NCBI GenBank assembly: GCA_030685015.1 | Contig: JAUXWS010000087.1 | Coordinates: forward strand, 24,822-88,821 | Reading direction: 5' to 3' | Source of the DNA: a bacterium | GTDB lineage: Bacteria > CAIWAD01 | Length of the DNA: 64,000 nt | Shown: positions 24,425 through 53,336 of the stretch, one piece after another | Layout of the letters: the number at the start of each line of letters is the position of its first letter | How positions within the stretch are numbered: the first letter of the stretch is position 1 | The notes under the pieces: model-generated | Told to the model about the DNA's origin: nothing | Databases searched by the model: none | Seen by the model: only the letters and a program-made list of their open reading frames with translations | Position numbers and translations under genes: made by a program

Positions 24425-24632
24425 CCTGTCATTCTGCAGAACTGTCATCCTGAGGACTTGTCATCCCAGCGAAAGCTGGGATCCCATCCTTTTTTGACCA
24501 GCGCCACGCGTGGCACTTGGTGGCCCGCTATCCCGGCACCGGCGCCGTGAGGCGACGGGATGGGTGGTATGGATGATCCTCCCGCGGGATCCCAGCTTCC
24601 GCTGGGATGACATCAAATCTGAGATGACGGAC
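24425..24632. repeat. MITE-like module of nested inverted repeats in the 5' region of ychF
   Basis: A 26-bp near-perfect inverted repeat: gtcatcccagcgaaagctgggatccc (24461-24486) versus gggatcccagcttccgctgggatgac (24588-24613). Each copy is itself a hairpin (cccagc-GAAA-gctggg). Three direct TGTCATYC copies lie on the left (24428, 24444, 24460) and two GATGACA copies on the right. Confidence 0.6.
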
Positions 24633-29259: not shown

Positions 29260-31076
29260 ACGGGATGGGCATGGGCGGGGGCATGCGCCATGGCCGCGCC
29301 TCCGACAGCGAGCGCGGACTGGACGGCCGCCTCCTGCGCCGTCTCACCGCCTACCTGCGGCCGCACTGGCGGGGAGCCCTCCTCGCCCTGCTCATGATCC
29401 TGGGCGCCGCCGCCCTGGAGACGGCCGTGCCCCTGGTGACGCGCCACGCCATCGACGTGCATGTGGCGGGGCGCGACCTGGCCGGGCTCTTCCGATCCCT
29501 CCTGGCCTTCCTGGGACTCTCCCTGGGCGCCTTCCTGCTGCGCTACGCCCAGCAGCTGACCACGGGCTGGATCGGCCAGAGCATCGTCCTCAAGCTGCGC
29601 GGCCGGGTCTTCGCCCGCGTCCTGCGCCTGCCCCTGGCCTGGTTCGACCGCCACCCCGTCGGTCAGGTGATGAGCCGCATCACCAACGACGTGGAATCCT
29701 TGAACGAGCTGTTCACGGGCGGCCTCATCCTCATCTTCCAGGACATCCTGCTGCTGGTCGCCATCGCCGCCGCCCTCCTCTGGATGGACTGGCGCCTGGC
29801 TTTGGTCCTCTTCGCCGTGGTGCCCTTCATCTTCCTGGCCAGCTTCCAGTTCAAACGGTTGACCCGGGCCGCCTTCCGCCGCGTGCGGGCCCTGGTGGGC
29901 GAAGTGACGGGCTTCCTGCAGGAGACGATCACGGGCATGGCCGTGGTCCAGCTCTTCCGGCGGGAGCGCGGCACCCGGGAGCGCTTCGCCCGCATGAACG
30001 ACGAGCTGATGCGGGAGAATGTCCGCACCATCTTCTACTTCGCCGTCTTCTTCCCGCTGATGGAGCTGCTGGGCAGCGTGGCGACGGCGGCCATCATCTG
30101 GGCGGCGGCGGGACGCCTGCTGGAGGGCAGCCTGAGTTTCGGCGCCCTGGTCGCCTTCCTGGCCTACGCCGATCGCTTCTTCCGCCCCATCCGCGACCTG
30201 GCCGAGAAGTACAACATCCTGCAGAGCGCCATGGCCGCCTCCGAGCGTGTCTTCGAACTGCTGGACGAGCCGGCCGCCCTGGCTGGTGGCCTGGTGGGCG
30301 CGCCCGGCGGTCCGCCCGCTCCGCCACGGCGGGGAGAGGTGGTGTTCGAGGGGGTCTGTTTCGCCTATGAAGGGGAGAACTGGGTGCTGCAGGACCTCTC
30401 CTTCCGCATTGAAGCCGGCACCAGCACGGCCCTGGTGGGCTGGACGGGCGCCGGCAAGAGCAGCGTGGCCGGCCTGCTGCTGCGCTACTACGAGTTCCAG
30501 CGCGGACGAATCCTGGTGGACGGCGTGGACATCCGCCAGTGGGATGCGGCCGCCCTGCGCGGGCGCATGGCCATCGTCCTCCAGGATGTCTTCCTCTTCT
30601 CCGGGACGGTGGCCGACAACATCCGCCTGGGGCGCGAGCTGCCGGTGGGGGCGGTGGAGGCGGCGGCGCGGCGCACCGGCCTGGACCGCCTGGCCGGACA
30701 GCGCGCCCTGGGCTATGAGGAGCCGGTGGGGGAACGGGGTCAGCTGCTCAGCGGCGGCCAGCGCCAGCTGGTCAGCTTCTCGCGGGCCCTGGCCGGGGAT
30801 CCGGCCATCCTGGTGCTGGACGAGGCGACCAGCAGCGTGGACTCCTTGTCGGAAGAGCTGATCCAGCAGGCCATCGCCCAAATGATGAGCGGACGCAGCT
30901 CTCTGGTCATCGCCCATCGCCTGTCCACCATCCGCGCCGCCGACCAGATCCTGGTCCTGCACCAGGGCCGGCTGGTGGAGCGGGGCCGCCACGACGAGCT
31001 GCTGGCGGCGCAGGGCTTCTACCATCGCCTCTGGCAGCTGGAGCAGCCGGTGGGGGAGGCGGACCGTGCAGCTTGA
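29256..31076 (+). CDS. ABC transporter permease/ATP-binding protein (type I exporter half-transporter, subunit 2)
   Basis: ATGA overlap with subunit 1. Walker A (GWTGAGKSS), signature (LSGGQRQLVSFSRAL) and Walker B (ILVLDEATSSVD) motifs. Confidence 0.85.
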   Translation: MNGMGMGGGMRHGRASDSERGLDGRLLRRLTAYLRPHWRGALLALLMILGAAALETAVPLVTRHAIDVHVAGRDLAGLFRSLLAFLGLSLGAFLLRYAQQLTTGWIGQSIVLKLRGRVFARVLRLPLAWFDRHPVGQVMSRITNDVESLNELFTGGLILIFQDILLLVAIAAALLWMDWRLALVLFAVVPFIFLASFQFKRLTRAAFRRVRALVGEVTGFLQETITGMAVVQLFRRERGTRERFARMNDELMRENVRTIFYFAVFFPLMELLGSVATAAIIWAAAGRLLEGSLSFGALVAFLAYADRFFRPIRDLAEKYNILQSAMAASERVFELLDEPAALAGGLVGAPGGPPAPPRRGEVVFEGVCFAYEGENWVLQDLSFRIEAGTSTALVGWTGAGKSSVAGLLLRYYEFQRGRILVDGVDIRQWDAAALRGRMAIVLQDVFLFSGTVADNIRLGRELPVGAVEAAARRTGLDRLAGQRALGYEEPVGERGQLLSGGQRQLVSFSRALAGDPAILVLDEATSSVDSLSEELIQQAIAQMMSGRSSLVIAHRLSTIRAADQILVLHQGRLVERGRHDELLAAQGFYHRLWQLEQPVGEADRAA

Positions 31077-31083
31077 GCCGATC

Positions 31084-32106
31084 ATGCTGCTGGCGGACGG
31101 GGTGACCGCCTCCTTCTGGGTCCTGCTCATGGCCGGCCTGCTGGGGGGGCTCACGGCCGGCCTCTTCGGCGTGGGCGGCGGCGTCATCGTCACGCCCCTG
31201 CTCATCTCCCTGGGCGTGCCGCCCCGCATCGCCGCCGGCAGCATGAACGTGGCCATCATCGCCAATGCGGCCGACTCGCTGGTGCACGACCTGCCGCGGC
31301 GCCGGGTCGACTGGCGGCTGGGTCTGTTCATGGGGGCGGCCGCCGTGGCGGGCGGGCAAGCGGGGACATTTTGGCTGGGCCGCCTGGGCAAGCCGGAATT
31401 GGTGGACCTCATGATCCGCGCCGGCTTCCTTGTCCTGCTGGCCTACATGGCCTATCACCTGCTGCGCAAGAAGCTGTCCCGCGGGGACACCGCCCGCCGC
31501 TGGCTCTTCCACATGCCCCTGCGCTACCAGAGTCCCTGGGAGGAGGCGCCGGTCAGCGCCCTGGGTCCCGTCCTGGCCTCGCTGGGGGGCGGCCTGGTGG
31601 CATCCTTGCTGGGAGTGGGCGGCGGCATCTTCTACGTGCCGGTCCTCCTGGCCCTCTTCCACCGCCCCCTGCAGGAGCTGGTCCCCGTCAGCCAGATCGC
31701 CGTCCTGCTGGGCACCTTGTCCGTCAGCACGGGCCATGTGCTGCACACGGGCTTCATCGATCCGCGCCTCTCCCTCATCCTGATCACGGCGGGCAGCGTG
31801 GGCACGGTGGTGGGCACGCGGCTCAAGTCGCACCTGGAGAGCCGGCTGTTGGAGCGCCTGCTCGCCCTGGTGCTCCTGGCCGCCGCGCTGCGCCTCGCCC
31901 TGCCCCTGATCGGGTTGGAGGCATCCCCCGCGCGGGCCGCGACGACCCTGGGGCGGGACTGGCTGCGGCCCTTCGCCGACTGGTGCGCCCGCGATCCGCT
32001 TCACCTTTGGCTGGGCACGGTGGGCGTGGCCCTGGGCATGGCACCGCTTCTCTCCTGGCTGCAGCATGCCCTCCTGGACCGCTTGCGCCGACGGAGCGCC
32101 ACCTGA
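31084..32106 (+). CDS. TauE/SafE (TSUP, DUF81) family anion-exporter permease
   Basis: Duplicated 4-TM halves each carrying a GVGGG motif (LFGVGGGVIVTPLL and LLGVGGGIFYVPVL). Confidence 0.75.
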   Translation: MLLADGVTASFWVLLMAGLLGGLTAGLFGVGGGVIVTPLLISLGVPPRIAAGSMNVAIIANAADSLVHDLPRRRVDWRLGLFMGAAAVAGGQAGTFWLGRLGKPELVDLMIRAGFLVLLAYMAYHLLRKKLSRGDTARRWLFHMPLRYQSPWEEAPVSALGPVLASLGGGLVASLLGVGGGIFYVPVLLALFHRPLQELVPVSQIAVLLGTLSVSTGHVLHTGFIDPRLSLILITAGSVGTVVGTRLKSHLESRLLERLLALVLLAAALRLALPLIGLEASPARAATTLGRDWLRPFADWCARDPLHLWLGTVGVALGMAPLLSWLQHALLDRLRRRSAT

Positions 32107-32132
32107 TGATCATCAGCAGCCCACGGGGACAA

Positions 32133-32338
32133 CCCCCGGGCAACCCCCGGGCAACACCAGGGCAACACCAGGGCAACACCAGGGCGGCACCAGGGCAACA
32201 CCAGGGCAACACCAGGGCAACACCAAGGCGACACCAGGGCAACACCAGGGCAACACCAGGGCGACACCAGGGCAACACCAGGGCAACACCAGGGCAACAC
32301 CAGGGCGACACCAGGGCGACACCAGGGGGCCAATTCGC
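32133..32338. repeat. 11-bp tandem repeat array, about 18 copies (consensus CACCAGGGCAA)
   Basis: Two cccccgggcaa units are followed by caccagggcaa units with occasional A-to-G or G-to-A variants. The array fills the whole gap between the TauE stop (32104-32106) and the reverse-strand stop at 32340-32342. It has no stop codon in any of the six frames. Confidence 0.95.
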
Positions 32339-32339
32339 C

Positions 32340-32624
32340 TCAGTAGCAGGCGTCGCGTCCAGTGCTGATGCTGAAAGCCGCCCGGTCTCGACCCTGGCGG
32401 TAATCCACCACCGCCTCCTCCACCCACTCCCGCTCCTGGGAATCCATCAGCACGAGGATCCCATTGACGTGAAGCTGTTTATCACTCTCCTGCGGCTCGT
32501 CCAGAGCCAGCCCCAGGCGGGGCCCGCCTCACCCGTGGCCGGCGATGGTGACACGCAAGCCCGCGCCGGGGTGTTCGGCCAGGATGGCCTGCAGGCGCTC
32601 CCGCGCCTTGTCGGTGATCTGCAC
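32340..32624 (-). CDS. IscA/HesB-like iron-sulfur cluster insertion protein with an in-frame TGA (candidate selenocysteine) at the conserved Cys position
   Basis: Reverse-strand translation from GTG 32624 gives (M)QITDKARERLQAILAEHPGAGLRVTIAGHG-TGA-GGPRLGLALDEPQESDKQLHVNGILVLMDSQEREWVEEAVVDYRQGRDRAAFSISTGRDACY*. It aligns to E. coli IscA [23 protein letters not shown] with the TGA (32529-32531) opposite Cys35. The hairpin GCCCC-gcct-GGGGC begins 6 nt after the TGA. Confidence 0.55.
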
Positions 32625-32688
32625 ATGGCCTCCCAGGATTCGCACAATCTGCTTCCACCCGCACAACCATGAGGGCGGGGCTGCCAGC

Positions 32689-32717
32689 TTGACGCCGCCA
32701 GACCGGCCACATAATAT
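32689..32717 (+). promoter_or_regulatory. near-consensus sigma70-type promoter (TTGACG, 17-bp spacer, TAATAT) overlapped by a 23-bp perfect palindrome
   Basis: The -35 element is 32689-32694 and the -10 element is 32712-32717. The palindrome AATATTTCATG-C-CATGAAATATT (32713-32735) covers the -10 and the predicted transcription start site. Confidence 0.5.
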
Positions 32718-32977
32718 TTCATGCCATGAAATATTTCAACAAGACCTTGGATTGTCACAAGTTCGACATGCTGACACATTGTTAGTTATGACGTATTCTG
32801 GCAGATTTGCGGGCGCCCTGTCGTATGTCAATACAAGCGGAACGGGCGGTTCAGCCTGGCTTTCCTTTGTCAATCAGGGTGCTGCGGTTTTTGCCGCTTC
32901 GGTGGCTTCGCGCGGACCATCCCGGGGCTTCGCCGGCGGATGCTCGCGGAAGGGACTCAACCATGTCAGGAGGATCC

Positions 32978-50867: not shown

Positions 50868-51881
50868 CTACGACAGCTCAGCCAGCTCCACCCGGCGGCC
50901 GCCCTGGCGCAGGCTGTGCTCGGCGGCCTCCAGCATGCGCGTCACGCGCAGGGCGTGGGCCGGGCCGCAGAGGGGTTCGGCGCCCGTGCGGATGCCGGCC
51001 AGGAAGTCACGGGCCATGCCCGCCAGCGCCTCGCCGCCGTCCAGGCGCGGCGCGCGCATGTCCCCCGTGCGATAGCTGACCAGCGTGCGCCAGATCTCCT
51101 CGGGCCGGGTCAGTTCCACGCCGCGGTCGTACACCTTGATCTTCTCGCTGGGCTCCATGTCATCGTACACGACCATGTGGCGGTCGCCGCCGATGAGGAT
51201 GCGCCTCACCTTGACGGGGGCGATCCAATTGACGTGGAAGTGGGCGATGAGCTGGTCCGGATAGAAGACCGTCAGGTAGGCCAGATCCTCGTGCTGGTAG
51301 TAATGGCGGGCGCCGCAGGCCTGCACGGCCTGGGGCTCCACCCCCGTCAGGTGGTCGCAGATGCTGAGGTCGTGGGGCGCCAGGTCCCACACCACGTTGG
51401 TGTCGTGCTGGAAGAGGCCCAGGTTGACGCGCACGCTGTCGAAGTAAAGCAGGCGGCCCAGTTCGCCGCCGTCCACCAGCTCGCGGATCTTGCGCACGGC
51501 CCCGGTGTAGAGGAAGGTGTGGTCCACCATCAGGGTCAAGCCCTTGCCCCGGGCCAGTCCGATCAGTTCGCGGGCCTGGGCGGCGCTTTCCGTGAAGGGC
51601 TTCTCCACCAGCAGGTGGCAGCCCGCCTCCAGGGCCAGCCGTCCCAAGTCGAAATGGGTGGAGAGGGGCGTGGCCAGCGCCACGGCGTCCAGCCCTTGCC
51701 CGAGCATCTGCTCGAAGCCGGCGGCCACCCGTGTTCCGGGAAATCGCCGGGCGGCGGCGGTGCGGCGCCCCTCGTCGAGGTCGGTGATCCAGAGCTCCTC
51801 CACGTCGGGCAGGGCCTGGAAATTGCGCACCAGATTGGGTCCCCAGTAGCCGAGCCCCACCACGCCGAATCTCATGATCAC
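50868..51881 (-). CDS. Gfo/Idh/MocA-family oxidoreductase (second WbpB-like sugar-nucleotide dehydrogenase)
   Basis: MRFGVVGLGYWGPNLVRNF...EKPFTESAAQAREL. Confidence 0.75.
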   Translation of the reverse strand: MIMRFGVVGLGYWGPNLVRNFQALPDVEELWITDLDEGRRTAAARRFPGTRVAAGFEQMLGQGLDAVALATPLSTHFDLGRLALEAGCHLLVEKPFTESAAQARELIGLARGKGLTLMVDHTFLYTGAVRKIRELVDGGELGRLLYFDSVRVNLGLFQHDTNVVWDLAPHDLSICDHLTGVEPQAVQACGARHYYQHEDLAYLTVFYPDQLIAHFHVNWIAPVKVRRILIGGDRHMVVYDDMEPSEKIKVYDRGVELTRPEEIWRTLVSYRTGDMRAPRLDGGEALAGMARDFLAGIRTGAEPLCGPAHALRVTRMLEAAEHSLRQGGRRVELAELS

Positions 51882-51933: not shown

Positions 51934-51966
51934 GATCTCGATATCGATATCGATATCGGTATCGAT
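51934..51966. repeat. hexanucleotide repeat block (ATCGAT/GATATC)n
   Basis: gatctcgatatcgatatcgatatcggtatcgat lies in the divergent promoter region. Confidence 0.9.
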
Positions 51967-52046: not shown

Positions 52047-52103
52047 CTCGATCACGATATCGATATCGATAGCGATAGCGATAGCGATAGCGATAGCGAT
52101 AAC
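52047..52103. repeat. hexanucleotide repeat block, GATATC x2 then (AGCGAT)x6
   Basis: tcgatcacgatatcgatatcgatagcgatagcgatagcgatagcgatagcgataa lies 115 bp upstream of the DegT-like start. Confidence 0.9.
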
Positions 52104-52217
52104 TGTGGTCAAGGTCGGATGAAGGCCCCGGTTTCTCCAAGCCGCGCCCAATCGCCACCTTTCCGCCTGCCCGAGCGGCCGGGGCGGCCGCCGGGGGACC
52201 ATCAGCACGGAGCTGTC

Positions 52218-53336
52218 ATGCCCGTCCCCTTCCTTGATCTGAAGATCCAATACCAGAGCATCAAACCCGAGATCGACGAAGCCATTGCCGGCATCCTCGC
52301 CCGGACCGAGTTCGTGACGGGTCCCACCGTCCGCGCCTTCGAGGAGGCCTTCGCCGCCGCCCACGGGGTCCGCTTCTGCGCCACCTGCAACAGCGGCACG
52401 GCGGCCCTGCATCTCATGCTGTGGGGGTTGGACATCGGACCCGGCGACGAGGTGCTCACCGCCGCCAACACCTTCATGGCGACGGCGGGCGGGATCAAGC
52501 TGGCCGGCGCCCGGCCCCGCCTGGCCGACGTGCGCGAGGAGGACTTCAACCTGGACCCGGAGCGCGTGGAGGCGGCCCTCACGCCGCGCACCCGCGCCCT
52601 CCTTCCCGTCCACCTCTACGGCCAGTGCGCCGATCTGGCCCCGCTCGCGGAGATCGCCCGCCGCCACGGCCTCCTGCTTCTGGAGGATGCCGCCCAGGCC
52701 CACCTCGCCACCTTCGAGGGCGGGCATGCCGGGCAGCATGGACGCGCCGCCGCATTCAGTTTCTACCCGGGCAAGAACCTGGGAGCCTACGGCGAGGGCG
52801 GCGCCGTGCTCACCAACGACGAGGACCTCTGGCGGCGCATCTGCCGCCTGCGCGACCACGGCATGCCCGAGAAGTACCTGCACACCGAGTGGGGCCACAA
52901 CTACCGGCTGGAGGGCCTGCAGGGGGCCGTCCTCGGCGTCAAGCTGCGCCATCTGGAAGCCTGGACGGAGGCCCGTCTCCAGGTGGCCGCCTGGTACCGG
53001 GAGGAGCTGGCCGGCCTGCCCGGCCTCCTTTGTCCGCAGGAGTTGCCCGGCCGCCGCCATGTCTACCACTTGTTCGTCATCCGCGTGACGCCGGAGTCCG
53101 GCATCAGCCGCGATGCCCTGATGGCCCGTCTGCAGCAGGCGGGAATCGGCTGCGGCCTGCACTATCCGCGCCCCGTCCACCTGCAGCCGGCGGCGGCGGA
53201 ACTGGGCTACCAGGCCGGGGACTTCCCGGTGACGGAGCGCCTCGCTGGCGAGATCCTCAGCTTGCCCATGTACGCGGAGCTGACGCGGGAGCAGGTGGCG
53301 GAGGTGGGTCGAATCCTGCGCTCAGCCCTGTCCTGA
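52218..53336 (+). CDS. DegT/DnrJ/EryC1/StrS PLP-dependent sugar aminotransferase (third copy in window)
   Basis: Start MPVPFLDLKIQYQ. FSFYPGKNLGAYGEGGAVL carries the PLP lysine. The upstream 33 codons in the ORF table are discounted. Confidence 0.85.
   Translation: MPVPFLDLKIQYQSIKPEIDEAIAGILARTEFVTGPTVRAFEEAFAAAHGVRFCATCNSGTAALHLMLWGLDIGPGDEVLTAANTFMATAGGIKLAGARPRLADVREEDFNLDPERVEAALTPRTRALLPVHLYGQCADLAPLAEIARRHGLLLLEDAAQAHLATFEGGHAGQHGRAAAFSFYPGKNLGAYGEGGAVLTNDEDLWRRICRLRDHGMPEKYLHTEWGHNYRLEGLQGAVLGVKLRHLEAWTEARLQVAAWYREELAGLPGLLCPQELPGRRHVYHLFVIRVTPESGISRDALMARLQQAGIGCGLHYPRPVHLQPAAAELGYQAGDFPVTERLAGEILSLPMYAELTREQVAEVGRILRSALS

What the first reader, a model, noticed from the sequence alone, without database searches (positions are those of the whole stretch)
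32133..32338. 11-bp tandem repeat array (about 18 copies) exactly filling the gap between two convergent stop codons
The unit CACCAGGGCAA is repeated head-to-tail with a few point variants: the first two units are cccccgggcaa, with later ..gcgg.. and ..gcga.. variants. Because 11 is not a multiple of 3 and the unit has no stop in any frame, all six frames are open across the array. The array starts 27 nt after the TauE stop and ends 2 nt before the IscA-like gene stop. It is immediately preceded by a perfect palindrome, CTGATGATCATCAG. An 11-bp period is close to the DNA helical repeat, so GGG tracts fall on one helix face. This could give intrinsic curvature or a protein array site, and a G3-N8 G-quadruplex on the plus strand is possible. 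It is not a CRISPR array: there are no spacers and the unit is too short. Copy-number instability by slipped-strand mispairing is plausible.
Basis: seen in the sequence. Interest (0 to 1): 0.6.

Follow-up and report, generated by a model that had tools for sequence, protein, structure and literature searches.

The report
Strain-variable 11-bp repeat between convergent genes
This is a real 11-base tandem repeat whose copy number differs (13, 18, 20, 22) between strains of one uncultured bacterium and which close relatives lack, so it is most likely an ordinary, fast-evolving repeat expansion in a dispensable gap between two genes, not a conserved functional element.

Summary
Window 32133-32330 carries 18 head-to-tail copies of CACCAGGGCAA. 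It lies between the TauE stop (32104-32106) and the stop of a minus-strand HesB/IscA-like selenoprotein gene (32342-32340).

Contigs of the same species (flanks 97.5-98.9% identical) carry 13, 18, 20 or 22 units with reshuffled unit variants. Five lineages whose TauE is 65-74% identical have no array. In three of them the two stop codons are 0-13 nt apart, and in one the gap holds a hairpin-rich, REP/MITE-like element (a small repeated hairpin element) instead. The array is therefore a young, lineage-specific, hypervariable VNTR (variable-number tandem repeat).

Tests of function gave little:
- G-quadruplex: the G4Hunter score is 0.19, far below threshold.
- RNA hairpin: the minus-strand hairpin is no better than arrays built from shuffled units.
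- Curvature: it is predicted, but 6.6% of shuffled-unit arrays match it.
- Context: no partition, regulator or mobile-element genes lie within about 15 kb.
- Palindrome: the 14-bp palindrome is one of several in the window.

In one strain group a 1-nt deletion makes the TauE reading frame run through the stop-free array.

One thing is unexplained. Near-perfect 11-bp arrays, some with the same ACCAGGG core, recur in uncultured phage contigs.

Verdict: ordinary VNTR, low interest.

The parts
32133..32330 (.). 11-bp tandem array: 18 units, consensus CACCAGGGCAA. Written as a unit string it is PPaaxaaaxaagaaaggx, where a = CACCAGGGCAA, g = CACCAGGGCGA, P = CCCCCGGGCAA and x = other.
   Evidence: TRF 32130-32327, period 11, 18.0 copies, score 319. 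Register listing; unit strings.
32122..32132 (.). Degenerate proto-unit CACGGGGACAA at the 5' edge of the array (8 of 11 bases match the consensus).
32331..32339 (.). Non-repeat tail CAATTCGCC between the last unit and the HesB stop codon.
   Evidence: Conserved in alleles A, B and D; reads CAAATCCCC in allele C.
32103..32116 (.). Perfect 14-bp palindrome CTGATGATCATCAG overlapping the TauE stop codon. Probably incidental.
   Evidence: One of 12 perfect 14-bp palindromes in the window. Absent from relatives.
31066..32106 (+). TauE/SafE-family membrane protein gene (346 aa), last gene of an ABC-ABC-TauE cluster. Its stop lies 26 nt upstream of the array.
   Evidence: Pfam PF01925, E 3.9e-40. 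Synteny.
32340..32666 (-). IscA/HesB-like gene with an in-frame TGA at 32531..32529 (probable selenocysteine). Its stop, TGA at 32342..32340, lies 9 nt from the last unit.
   Evidence: Translation. Best NCBIfam hit is NF038090 IscA_HesB_Se, at 58.5 bits against its 85-bit curated cut-off. The TGA is conserved in L037, L028 and L029.

Best explanation
The array is a young, lineage-specific, hypervariable VNTR (variable-number tandem repeat, minisatellite-like). It arose by slipped-strand mispairing or unequal recombination, and it sits in the dispensable gap between the 3' ends of two convergent chromosomal genes: TauE and a HesB-like selenoprotein gene.

The same processes keep changing it. 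Units are gained and lost, and unit variants are copied around within the array. Copy number and internal order therefore differ between strains whose flanks are about 98% identical.

It most likely has no selected function. Its effects are incidental:
- It pushes the two stop codons about 230 bp apart.
- It is predicted to be moderately curved, as any repeat with a near-helical period tends to be.
- It has no stop codon in any frame, so an upstream frameshift is converted into a long low-complexity tail on the protein.

Shown: the array exists, it is polymorphic within the species, relatives lack it, and there is no specific structural signal. Inferred: the slippage mechanism and the neutrality.
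For: Polymorphism within one species:
- Allele A (window; Logan SRR13727517 ends L001 and L041) has 18 units.
- Allele B has 20 units and is identical in assemblies of 5 JGI samples (L022, L031, L033, L034, L035).
- Allele C (L037, with the L036 tail) has 22 units.
- Allele D (L044) has 13 units.
- Flanks are 97.5-98.9% identical to the window.

Variant units spread by copying rather than by point mutation:
- Unit positions 2 and 5 are fully coupled: CACCA 47 times, CCCCC 10 times, and no CACCC or CCCCA intermediate.
- The CCCCC unit appears at different internal positions in alleles B and C.
- The 3' suffix 'agaaaggx' is shared by A, B and D, while the 5' and middle parts differ. This kind of polarity is typical of minisatellites.
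- Allele D equals allele B minus units 6-12, a deletion between two identical CCCCCGGGCGA units.

Not conserved in relatives:
- Relatives with TauE 65-73% identical keep the same gene order but have 0 nt (L029, L030), 13 nt (L028) or 217 nt of unrelated hairpin-rich DNA (L023-L026) between the two stops.
- L048 (TauE 74% identical) has other DNA downstream.

Single locus in ordinary chromosomal context:
- The unit occurs nowhere else in the 64 kb.
- Neighbouring genes are housekeeping: ABC exporters, a DHOD-like gene, DUF302, PTPS, a 2-oxoacid dehydrogenase complex and sugar-nucleotide enzymes.

No specific structural signal:
- No Rfam family matches.
- No terminator-like site lies in the spacer.
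- G4Hunter scores 0.19.
- The plus-strand RNA is unstructured, z -0.39.
- The minus-strand RNA hairpin (z -4.9) disappears against the proper null: 72.5% of shuffled-unit arrays fold at least as well.
- As single-stranded DNA, neither strand is structured.
- CCNGG and Chi-like words are at expected frequency in the rest of the window.
Against: - All alleles come from short-read metagenome assemblies, which can collapse or break tandem arrays. The 13-unit allele, seen once, could be an assembly collapse.
- Every conspecific contig that reaches the site keeps an array of at least 13 units with an invariant CC-GGGC core. Retention by selection is therefore not excluded.
- Predicted curvature lies in the upper 7% of shuffled-unit arrays.
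- Arrays with the same or a near-identical unit occur in unrelated genomes and phage contigs. ACCAGGG-core arrays were somewhat more frequent in viral contigs than two control cores: 6 independent contigs against 2 and 2.
- No transcriptome or protein-binding data were available.
Confidence: 0.72

Rival explanations
1. Curved-DNA or protein-array element. The near-helical 11-bp period phases a bend, or a binding site for a cooperatively binding protein. This would resemble ParR on parC, or OmpR/PhoB-type regulators on 11-bp direct repeats. The resulting structural DNA element would lie between the two genes.
For: - The period is 11 bp.
- Predicted curvature is 17.6 deg per turn, above every 198-bp background window (maximum 12.1).
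- The CC-GGGC core is invariant in 57-60 of 60 units across alleles.
- Similar ACCAGGG-core 11-bp arrays occur in phage contigs.
Against: - Relatives lack the array.
- It lies at the 3' ends of both genes, not at a promoter.
- No par, RHH, wHTH or response-regulator gene was found among the neighbours annotated between about 15 and 50 kb of the window.
- 6.6% of shuffled-unit arrays are equally curved.
- The phase drifts about 17 deg per unit.
- An invariant core is also what recent homogenisation by slippage would produce.
Confidence: 0.08
2. RNA-level 3'-end element. On the plus strand, the T-free, C>G, unstructured array would act as a Rho-loading (rut-like) tract that ends TauE-operon transcription before it runs antisense into the HesB gene. 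On the minus strand, it would form a long G.U hairpin that stabilises the HesB mRNA 3' end, as REP elements do.
For: - The plus-strand RNA is unstructured (z -0.39), with C at 4 per unit against G at 3, and one CC per 11 nt.
- The minus-strand RNA folds at -105.5 kcal/mol, z -4.9 against dinucleotide shuffles.
- No intrinsic terminator was found in the spacer.
Against: - Relatives manage with 0-13 nt between the two stops, so no such element is needed.
- G content of about 29% is high for a rut site.
- The hairpin energy is typical of shuffled-unit arrays.
- Neither idea could be tested without transcript data.
Confidence: 0.08
3. G-quadruplex-forming repeat. G3 tracts every 11 nt would fold into G4 structures on the plus strand, in DNA or RNA.
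For: There are 17 GGG tracts with 8-nt loops, and the relaxed pattern with loops of up to 8 nt matches. G4-forming simple sequence repeats (GGGNATC) near stop codons are known in Xanthomonas and Nostoc (PMC4692102).
Against: - G4Hunter mean is 0.19 and the maximum is 0.88, below the 1.2 threshold.
- There is no canonical match with loops of up to 7 nt.
- The same strand has more C than G, which favours ordinary pairing.
- It is a single locus, and copy numbers of 13-22 show no preference for four tracts.
Confidence: 0.04
4. Coding repeat. The array would encode an 11-residue repeat (PGQHQGNTRAT) as a C-terminal tail of TauE.
For: In alleles B and D, a 1-nt deletion 11 codons before the stop lets the TauE ORF run through the array. 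Gene callers report products of 433 and 457 aa.
Against: - Alleles A and C and all relatives end TauE before the array, 8-11 residues after the conserved LLDR/VLDR motif.
- The B and D extensions use different exit frames. D runs 170 aa, antisense through HesB.
- Copy-number steps of 11 bp are not multiples of 3.
Confidence: 0.03

Closest known systems
Bacterial VNTRs / minisatellites (the loci used for MLVA typing; reviewed in the literature on variable tandem repeats in bacteria, cited here from my own knowledge)
   Same: Head-to-tail units of about 10 bp in an intergenic site, copy number differing between closely related strains, interspersed unit variants, degenerate edge units, and change by slippage or unequal recombination.
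   Different: It is found in an uncultured bacterium related to Candidatus Delongbacteria. It fills a gap that is 0-13 nt long in sister lineages. The stop-free 11-bp unit lets a frameshifted upstream ORF run through it.
GGGNATC G-quadruplex-forming simple sequence repeats of Xanthomonas and Nostoc (Rehm et al. 2015, PMC4692102)
   Same: A G3-containing short tandem repeat with variable unit number (2-26 there), over-represented in non-coding DNA, often within 50 bp of a stop codon.
   Different: Those repeats are 7-nt units with short loops, proven to form G4 in vitro, dispersed genome-wide, and show a preference for four units. Here the unit is 11 nt with 8-nt loops, G4Hunter scores 0.19, and there is one locus with 13-22 units.
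parC centromere of plasmid R1 (ten 11-bp iterons bound by ParR) and other type II/III partition sites (from my own knowledge)
   Same: Tandem direct repeats with a period of 10-12 bp, and about 10-20 copies.
   Different: parC flanks the promoter of an adjacent parMR operon on a plasmid. Here the site is chromosomal, lies at two gene 3' ends, has no partition genes nearby and is not conserved.
11-bp direct-repeat operators of OmpR/PhoB-family regulators (PHO boxes) and of CarH (CarH: PMC9304148; PhoB: PMC4447250; both listed, not read; details from my own knowledge)
   Same: An 11-bp period of direct repeats that places successive protein monomers on roughly one DNA face.
   Different: Those operators have 2-4 repeats (rarely about 10) inside promoters and have different consensus sequences. 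Here there are 18 repeats downstream of two stop codons.
Near-perfect 11-bp arrays in uncultured phage contigs
   Same: Same period. In several cases the unit is the same or nearly the same: CAACACCAGGG in L017 and L019, GACCAGGGCAA in L052. All are intergenic.
   Different: The phage arrays are usually perfect, have 4-16 copies and occur several per contig. In L017 they lie upstream of a conserved promoter-like motif. L018 and L020 carry them at syntenic sites. Their function is unknown, and a link to the window's array is not shown.

Membership tests
Bacterial VNTR / minisatellite | Head-to-tail repetition of a unit of about 7-100 bp, without spacers | tested here: met
   TRF period 11, 18.0 copies, 93% matches, 0% indels. 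Register listing.
Bacterial VNTR / minisatellite | Copy number differs between strains of one species | tested here: met
   13, 18, 20 and 22 units in contigs whose flanks are 97.5-98.9% identical. Caveat: these are short-read assemblies, and the 13-unit allele was seen only once.
Phase-variable contingency locus (simple sequence repeat switch) | The repeat lies inside an ORF or promoter, so that unit gain or loss switches expression | tested here: not met
   The array lies after the stop codons of both flanking genes in alleles A and C. Promoter-like sites lie elsewhere, at 32689-32799.
G4-forming simple sequence repeats (GGGNATC class, PMC4692102) | At least four G3 tracts with short loops and a predicted or measured G-quadruplex | tested here: not met
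   G4Hunter mean 0.19, maximum 0.88. No match with loops of up to 7 nt.
G4-forming simple sequence repeats (GGGNATC class, PMC4692102) | Many dispersed copies in the genome, with a preference for four units | tested here: not met
   One locus in 64 kb with 13-22 units. The rest of the genome was not available.
Type II partition centromere (parC-like) | Tandem 10-12-bp iterons | tested here: met
   Period 11, 18 copies.
Type II partition centromere (parC-like) | Adjacent genes for a partition NTPase and a centromere-binding adaptor, with the site overlapping their promoter | tested here: not met
   The flanking genes are TauE and HesB-like. Neighbours annotated between about 15 and 50 kb of the window are housekeeping genes.
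OmpR/PhoB-type or CarH-type operator | 11-bp direct repeats placed in a promoter region | tested here: not met
   The period matches, but the position is between two convergent stop codons, and no promoter-like site lies in 32107-32339. The consensus sequences were compared from memory only.
CRISPR array | Repeats of about 23-50 bp separated by unique spacers of similar length | tested here: not met
   11-bp units abut without spacers.
Rho-utilisation (rut) tract | A C-rich, G-poor, unstructured RNA stretch of about 80 nt, followed by Rho-dependent 3' ends | tested here: inconclusive
   The plus-strand RNA is unstructured (z -0.39), with 4 C to 3 G per unit. G is not low, and termination cannot be tested without transcript data.
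Known RNA families (Rfam 15) | A match at the gathering score | tested here: not met
   No match in the window at gathering thresholds. Only chance-level matches (E 0.85-3.9) in 31900-32800.

The most novel reading that the evidence does not exclude
The array could be one bacterial instance of a so far undescribed class: 11-bp-period intergenic arrays sharing an ACCAGGG (CCWGG-containing) core. Such arrays are recurrent in uncultured phages. Examples are several arrays per contig in L017-L020, syntenic arrays in L018 and L020, and arrays upstream of a conserved promoter-like motif in L017. They might serve as phased binding sites or curved DNA for a widespread protein. On this reading, the window's species retains its array because of that activity.
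Probability: 0.06. Interest if true: 0.6.

Novelty: new member of a known kind. Interest (0 to 1): 0.22.

Why it matters
For the bacterium, probably little. The array is a convenient strain marker for this uncultured lineage related to Candidatus Delongbacteria. It is also a practical warning, because short-read assemblies break or may collapse at it.

Two small general points come out of the work:
- The gap between convergent stop codons is a permissive site. One lineage filled it with a VNTR and a sister lineage filled it with a REP/MITE-like hairpin element.
- A repeat without stop codons in any frame turns an upstream frameshift into a long low-complexity protein tail. This inflates gene calls: TauE is reported as 433 or 457 aa instead of 346 aa.

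The recurrence of perfect 11-bp arrays in phage contigs may deserve a separate study.

Tried and rejected
Searches for known elements:
- Rfam, at gathering and at permissive thresholds, found nothing meaningful.
- The tRNA/tmRNA scan found none.
- The intrinsic-terminator scan found none in the spacer.
- The inverted-repeat search around the array found none with seed 9.

Structural hypotheses:
- G4: rejected on the G4Hunter score and on loop length.
- Minus-strand RNA hairpin: it looked significant against dinucleotide shuffles, but not against arrays of shuffled units.
- Hairpin-driven slippage: single-stranded DNA folds are weaker than shuffles on both strands.

Sequence-motif hypotheses:
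- Chi-like (the minus-strand unit CCTGGTG resembles E. coli GCTGGTGG) and restriction/Dcm-site (CCNGG in every unit) ideas were checked. These words occur at expected frequency in the rest of the window, so no support was found.

Collection scans:
- The genome-contig scan gave 13 hits, all of 2-5 copies in unrelated phyla and partly inside genes. The source genome was not found.
- The metagenome-contig scan gave 6 contigs, none from the source species. That collection evidently lacks the samples that hold it.
- Exact look-up of the choice-of-anchor V protein found nothing on record.
- Cluster look-up for organism names returned none.
- Control scans of viral contigs with three shuffled units gave 0, 0 and 0 hits against 1 for the real unit, which is uninformative.

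Phage side lead:
- The L017 promoter-like motif is not in IMG/VR.
- Known phages with the phrog_1924 homologue (Roseobacter phage CRP-406, Synechococcus phage S-CBS3) have no arrays.

Other:
- My first translation of the minus-strand gene used the wrong frame and was corrected.
- Literature searches for 11-bp tandem repeats in bacteria found no description of this element.

Full report
**1. The observation**

Tandem Repeats Finder (TRF) finds one outstanding array in the 64-kb window: 32130-32327, period 11, 18.0 copies, 93% matches, no indels, score 319. The next best array scores 80.

They comprise two CCCCCGGGCAA, eleven CACCAGGGCAA, one ..GCGG, three ..GCGA, one CACCAAGGCGA, and a degenerate last unit CACCAGGGGGC. 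A degenerate proto-unit (CACGGGGACAA, 32122-32132) precedes the array. Nine non-repeat bases (32331-32339) follow it. The exact 11-mer CAACACCAGGG occurs 10 times inside the array and nowhere else in the window.

The flanks are as described:
- TauE is at 31066-32106 (PF01925, E 3.9e-40).
- A minus-strand IscA/HesB-like gene lies at 32666..32340.

All six frames are open simply because the plus strand of the array contains no T. The palindrome CTGATGATCATCAG (32103-32116) is real, but it is one of 12 perfect 14-bp palindromes in the window.

**2. Context**

The window has 66.4% G+C, no tRNA genes and no Rfam matches. It encodes housekeeping functions:
- two ABC exporters upstream of TauE;
- a choice-of-anchor V protein with a T9SS sorting tail;
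- a dihydroorotate-dehydrogenase-like protein, DUF302 and PTPS;
- a 2-oxoacid dehydrogenase complex, SPFH proteins and sugar-nucleotide and exopolysaccharide enzymes.

The 100%-identical DHOD-like protein is recorded at NCBI only as 'MAG ... [bacterium]'. The nearest named relative, at 84% identity, is Candidatus Delongbacteria. Nothing nearby suggests a plasmid, a prophage, a partition system or a regulator that would use the array.

**3. Comparison within the species**

Exact-protein look-ups recovered the same locus from several metagenomes. Written as unit strings (a = CACCAGGGCAA, g = CACCAGGGCGA, P = CCCCCGGGCAA, Q = CCCCCGGGCGA, x = other), the alleles are:

| Allele | Source | Units | Unit string |
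|---|---|---|---|
| A | window; both ends also in Logan SRR13727517 (L001, L041) | 18 | PPaaxaaaxaagaaaggx |
| B | identical in five JGI samples (L022, L031, L033, L034, L035) | 20 | PPgaQgggagaQagaaaggx |
| C | L037, with the tail in L036 | 22 | PQagagxQaaagggggaaQgxx |
| D | L044 | 13 | PPgaQagaaaggx |

Flanks are 97.5-98.9% identical to the window.

Several features point to copying rather than point mutation:
- D equals B minus units 6-12, a deletion between two identical Q units.
- Unit positions 2 and 5 always change together (47 CACCA, 10 CCCCC, no CACCC or CCCCA intermediate). Variant units are therefore copied around rather than created by repeated point mutation.
- The 3' suffix is shared by A, B and D, while the 5' and middle parts differ.

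This is the behaviour of a minisatellite evolving by slippage and unequal exchange.

There is a caveat. All alleles come from short-read assemblies. Three contigs end inside the array, and the single 13-unit contig could be a collapse.

**4. Comparison with relatives**

TauE homologues of 65-73% identity keep the same neighbourhood: ABC, ABC, TauE, then the convergent HesB-like gene, choice-of-anchor/T9SS protein, DHOD-like and DUF302. None has the array. The distance between the two stop codons is:
- 0 nt in L029 and L030;
- 13 nt in L028;
- 217 nt in L023-L026.

In L023-L026 the gap holds unrelated hairpin-rich DNA. That DNA includes the element GATCCCAGCTTTCGCTGGGATGACA, and a copy of the same element lies at window 24450-24485.

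A 74% relative (L048) has yet other DNA downstream of TauE. The closest DHOD relative with a long contig (L047, 87%) has lost the synteny.

The array is therefore a recent, species-level insertion or expansion at a site that is normally almost empty.

**5. Tests of the proposed functions**

*G-quadruplex.* The array's G4Hunter mean is 0.19 and its best 25-nt window scores 0.88. There is no G3N1-7 match; the pattern matches only with 8-nt loops. This is not supported.

*Curvature.* I used Bolshoy-type wedge angles, with parameters recalled from memory.

| Sequence | Predicted curvature (deg per helical turn) |
|---|---|
| Array | 17.6 |
| 198-bp background windows | 5.9 +/- 1.1 (maximum 12.1) |
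| Phased A6 control | 26.9 |
| Arrays of shuffled units | mean 10.1; 6.6% reach the real unit's value |

The twist sum of 376.6 deg per unit makes the phase drift about 17 deg per unit. Curvature is thus plausible, but it is largely a generic consequence of the period.

*RNA structure.*
- The plus-strand transcript is unstructured (z -0.39).
- The minus-strand transcript folds into a long G.U-rich hairpin (-105.5 kcal/mol, z -4.9 against dinucleotide shuffles).
- However, 72.5% of arrays made from shuffled units fold at least as well, so this is not a specific signal.
- As single-stranded DNA, neither strand is structured.

*Other tests.*
- There is no terminator-like site in the spacer.
- CCNGG, present in 17 of 18 units, and Chi-like words are at expected frequency elsewhere in the window.

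**6. The same unit elsewhere**

A scan of one genome per species found 13 matches to two units. All had 2-5 copies, came from unrelated phyla, and some lay inside genes.

The metagenome scan found six contigs, four of which carry several 11-bp arrays each:
- L017 and L019 (low G+C) carry the identical unit CAACACCAGGG.
- L018 has CGACACCAGGG, 16 copies.
- L020 has CAGCACCAGGG, 15 copies, plus a second array of the related unit CGCCAGGGCTA on the other strand.

L018 and L020 are phage contigs. Both carry a phrog_1924 'minor tail protein' gene beside the array. In L017 the arrays sit upstream of a repeated promoter-like motif.

Known phages with distant phrog_1924 homologues have no arrays.

In IMG/VR, four ACCAGGG cores at 11-bp spacing occur in 6 independent contigs, against 2 and 2 for two control cores. 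All hits, controls included, are near-perfect 4-12-copy arrays. Perfect 11-bp arrays of many different units are therefore common in uncultured phages. The mild excess of the ACCAGGG core is unexplained. I found no evidence that links those arrays to the one in the window.

**7. Conclusion**

The best explanation is a young, hypervariable VNTR in a dispensable convergent intergenic gap, without selected function (confidence about 0.7).

The rivals each have little or no support: a curved or protein-binding element, a Rho-loading tract or mRNA 3' hairpin, a G4 and a coding repeat. Most are contradicted by the absence of the array in relatives.

The array is a new member of a well-known kind, and interest is low. 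The most novel reading still open is membership in an undescribed class of ACCAGGG-core 11-bp arrays shared with phages (probability about 0.06).

Noticed in passing
window 32340-32666 (minus strand); TGA at 32531..32529: The 'IscA-like' gene is a HesB-like selenoprotein candidate. An in-frame TGA sits in the motif G-H-G-U-G-G-P-R-L, and it is conserved at the same position in L037, L028 and L029 (TauE 65-71% identical in the latter two lineages). The best NCBIfam hit is NF038090 IscA_HesB_Se, at 58.5 bits against its 85-bit cut-off. Gene callers split it into fragments of 45 and about 57 aa. In the window and in allele B the C-terminus is ...ACY*, whereas allele C and the relatives end in CC*. 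The 62 nt starting at the UGA fold to -25.3 kcal/mol, which is not distinct from shuffles (z -0.78).
   Followed up: partly
L022, L031, L033, L035 and L044 (equivalent to window ~32092): In alleles B and D, a 1-nt deletion (CGACGGAG to CGA-GGGG) 11 codons before the TauE stop makes the ORF run through the stop-free array. TauE is then called as 433 aa (B) or 457 aa (D, antisense into HesB) instead of 346 aa. The deletion is identical in five independent assemblies, so it is probably real.
   Followed up: yes
L017 (1-136, 549-712, 1209-1242), L019 (364-426), L018 (1-152, 1217-1382, 1455-1534), L020 (202-418, 1743-1907): Uncultured phage contigs carry several 11-bp arrays each, with units identical or close to the window's (core CCAGGG). 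L018 and L020 have them beside a phrog_1924 gene. L018 also has four 21-bp iteron-like repeats next to its array. In L017 each array precedes the motif GTCAATATTGAAACCGAGAGA upstream of a small gene. Function is unknown.
   Followed up: partly
L051-L063 (IMG/VR contigs): Near-perfect 11-bp tandem arrays (4-12 copies, 98-100% identity) with many different units turn up readily in viral contigs, including a GC-rich array (CCAGGGCAAGA, 5.2 copies) in a 34% G+C contig (L052). ACCAGGG-core arrays were found in 6 independent contigs, against 2 and 2 for two control cores.
   Followed up: partly
window 51934-51966 and 52055-52101: Two hexamer arrays, (GATATC) 5.5 copies and (GATAGC/CGATAG) 7.8 copies, lie in the intergenic region between the divergent ORFs 50868-51881 (minus) and 52119-53336 (plus). 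They account for 5 of the window's 12 perfect 14-bp palindromes.
   Followed up: no
window 24427-24485; L023 5086-5150: A REP/MITE-like hairpin element (TTGTCATCCCAGCGAAAGCTGGGATC, preceded by CTGTCATTCTG and CTGTCATCCTGAGG half-copies) lies in an intergenic spot of the window. The same hairpin, in the other orientation, fills the TauE-HesB gap of the sister lineage.
   Followed up: partly
window 32689-32799: An AT-rich stretch (47-52% G+C in a 66% genome) lies between the divergently oriented HesB-like and choice-of-anchor V genes. It holds 5 sigma-70-like promoter matches, against 0.1 expected from shuffles.
   Followed up: no
L048 1270-1467: In a relative with TauE 74% identical, the DNA downstream of TauE carries a twice-repeated block of short GTCCGACAC-type repeats (GGTGTCGGACACTTCGTCCGACACCTTGTCCGACACC) instead of the HesB gene.
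   Followed up: no
L001 end (4113), L041 start, L036 end: Short-read assemblies (Logan and one JGI contig) terminate inside the array. The locus therefore fragments assemblies of this species, and copy numbers from such assemblies should be treated as provisional.
   Followed up: yes
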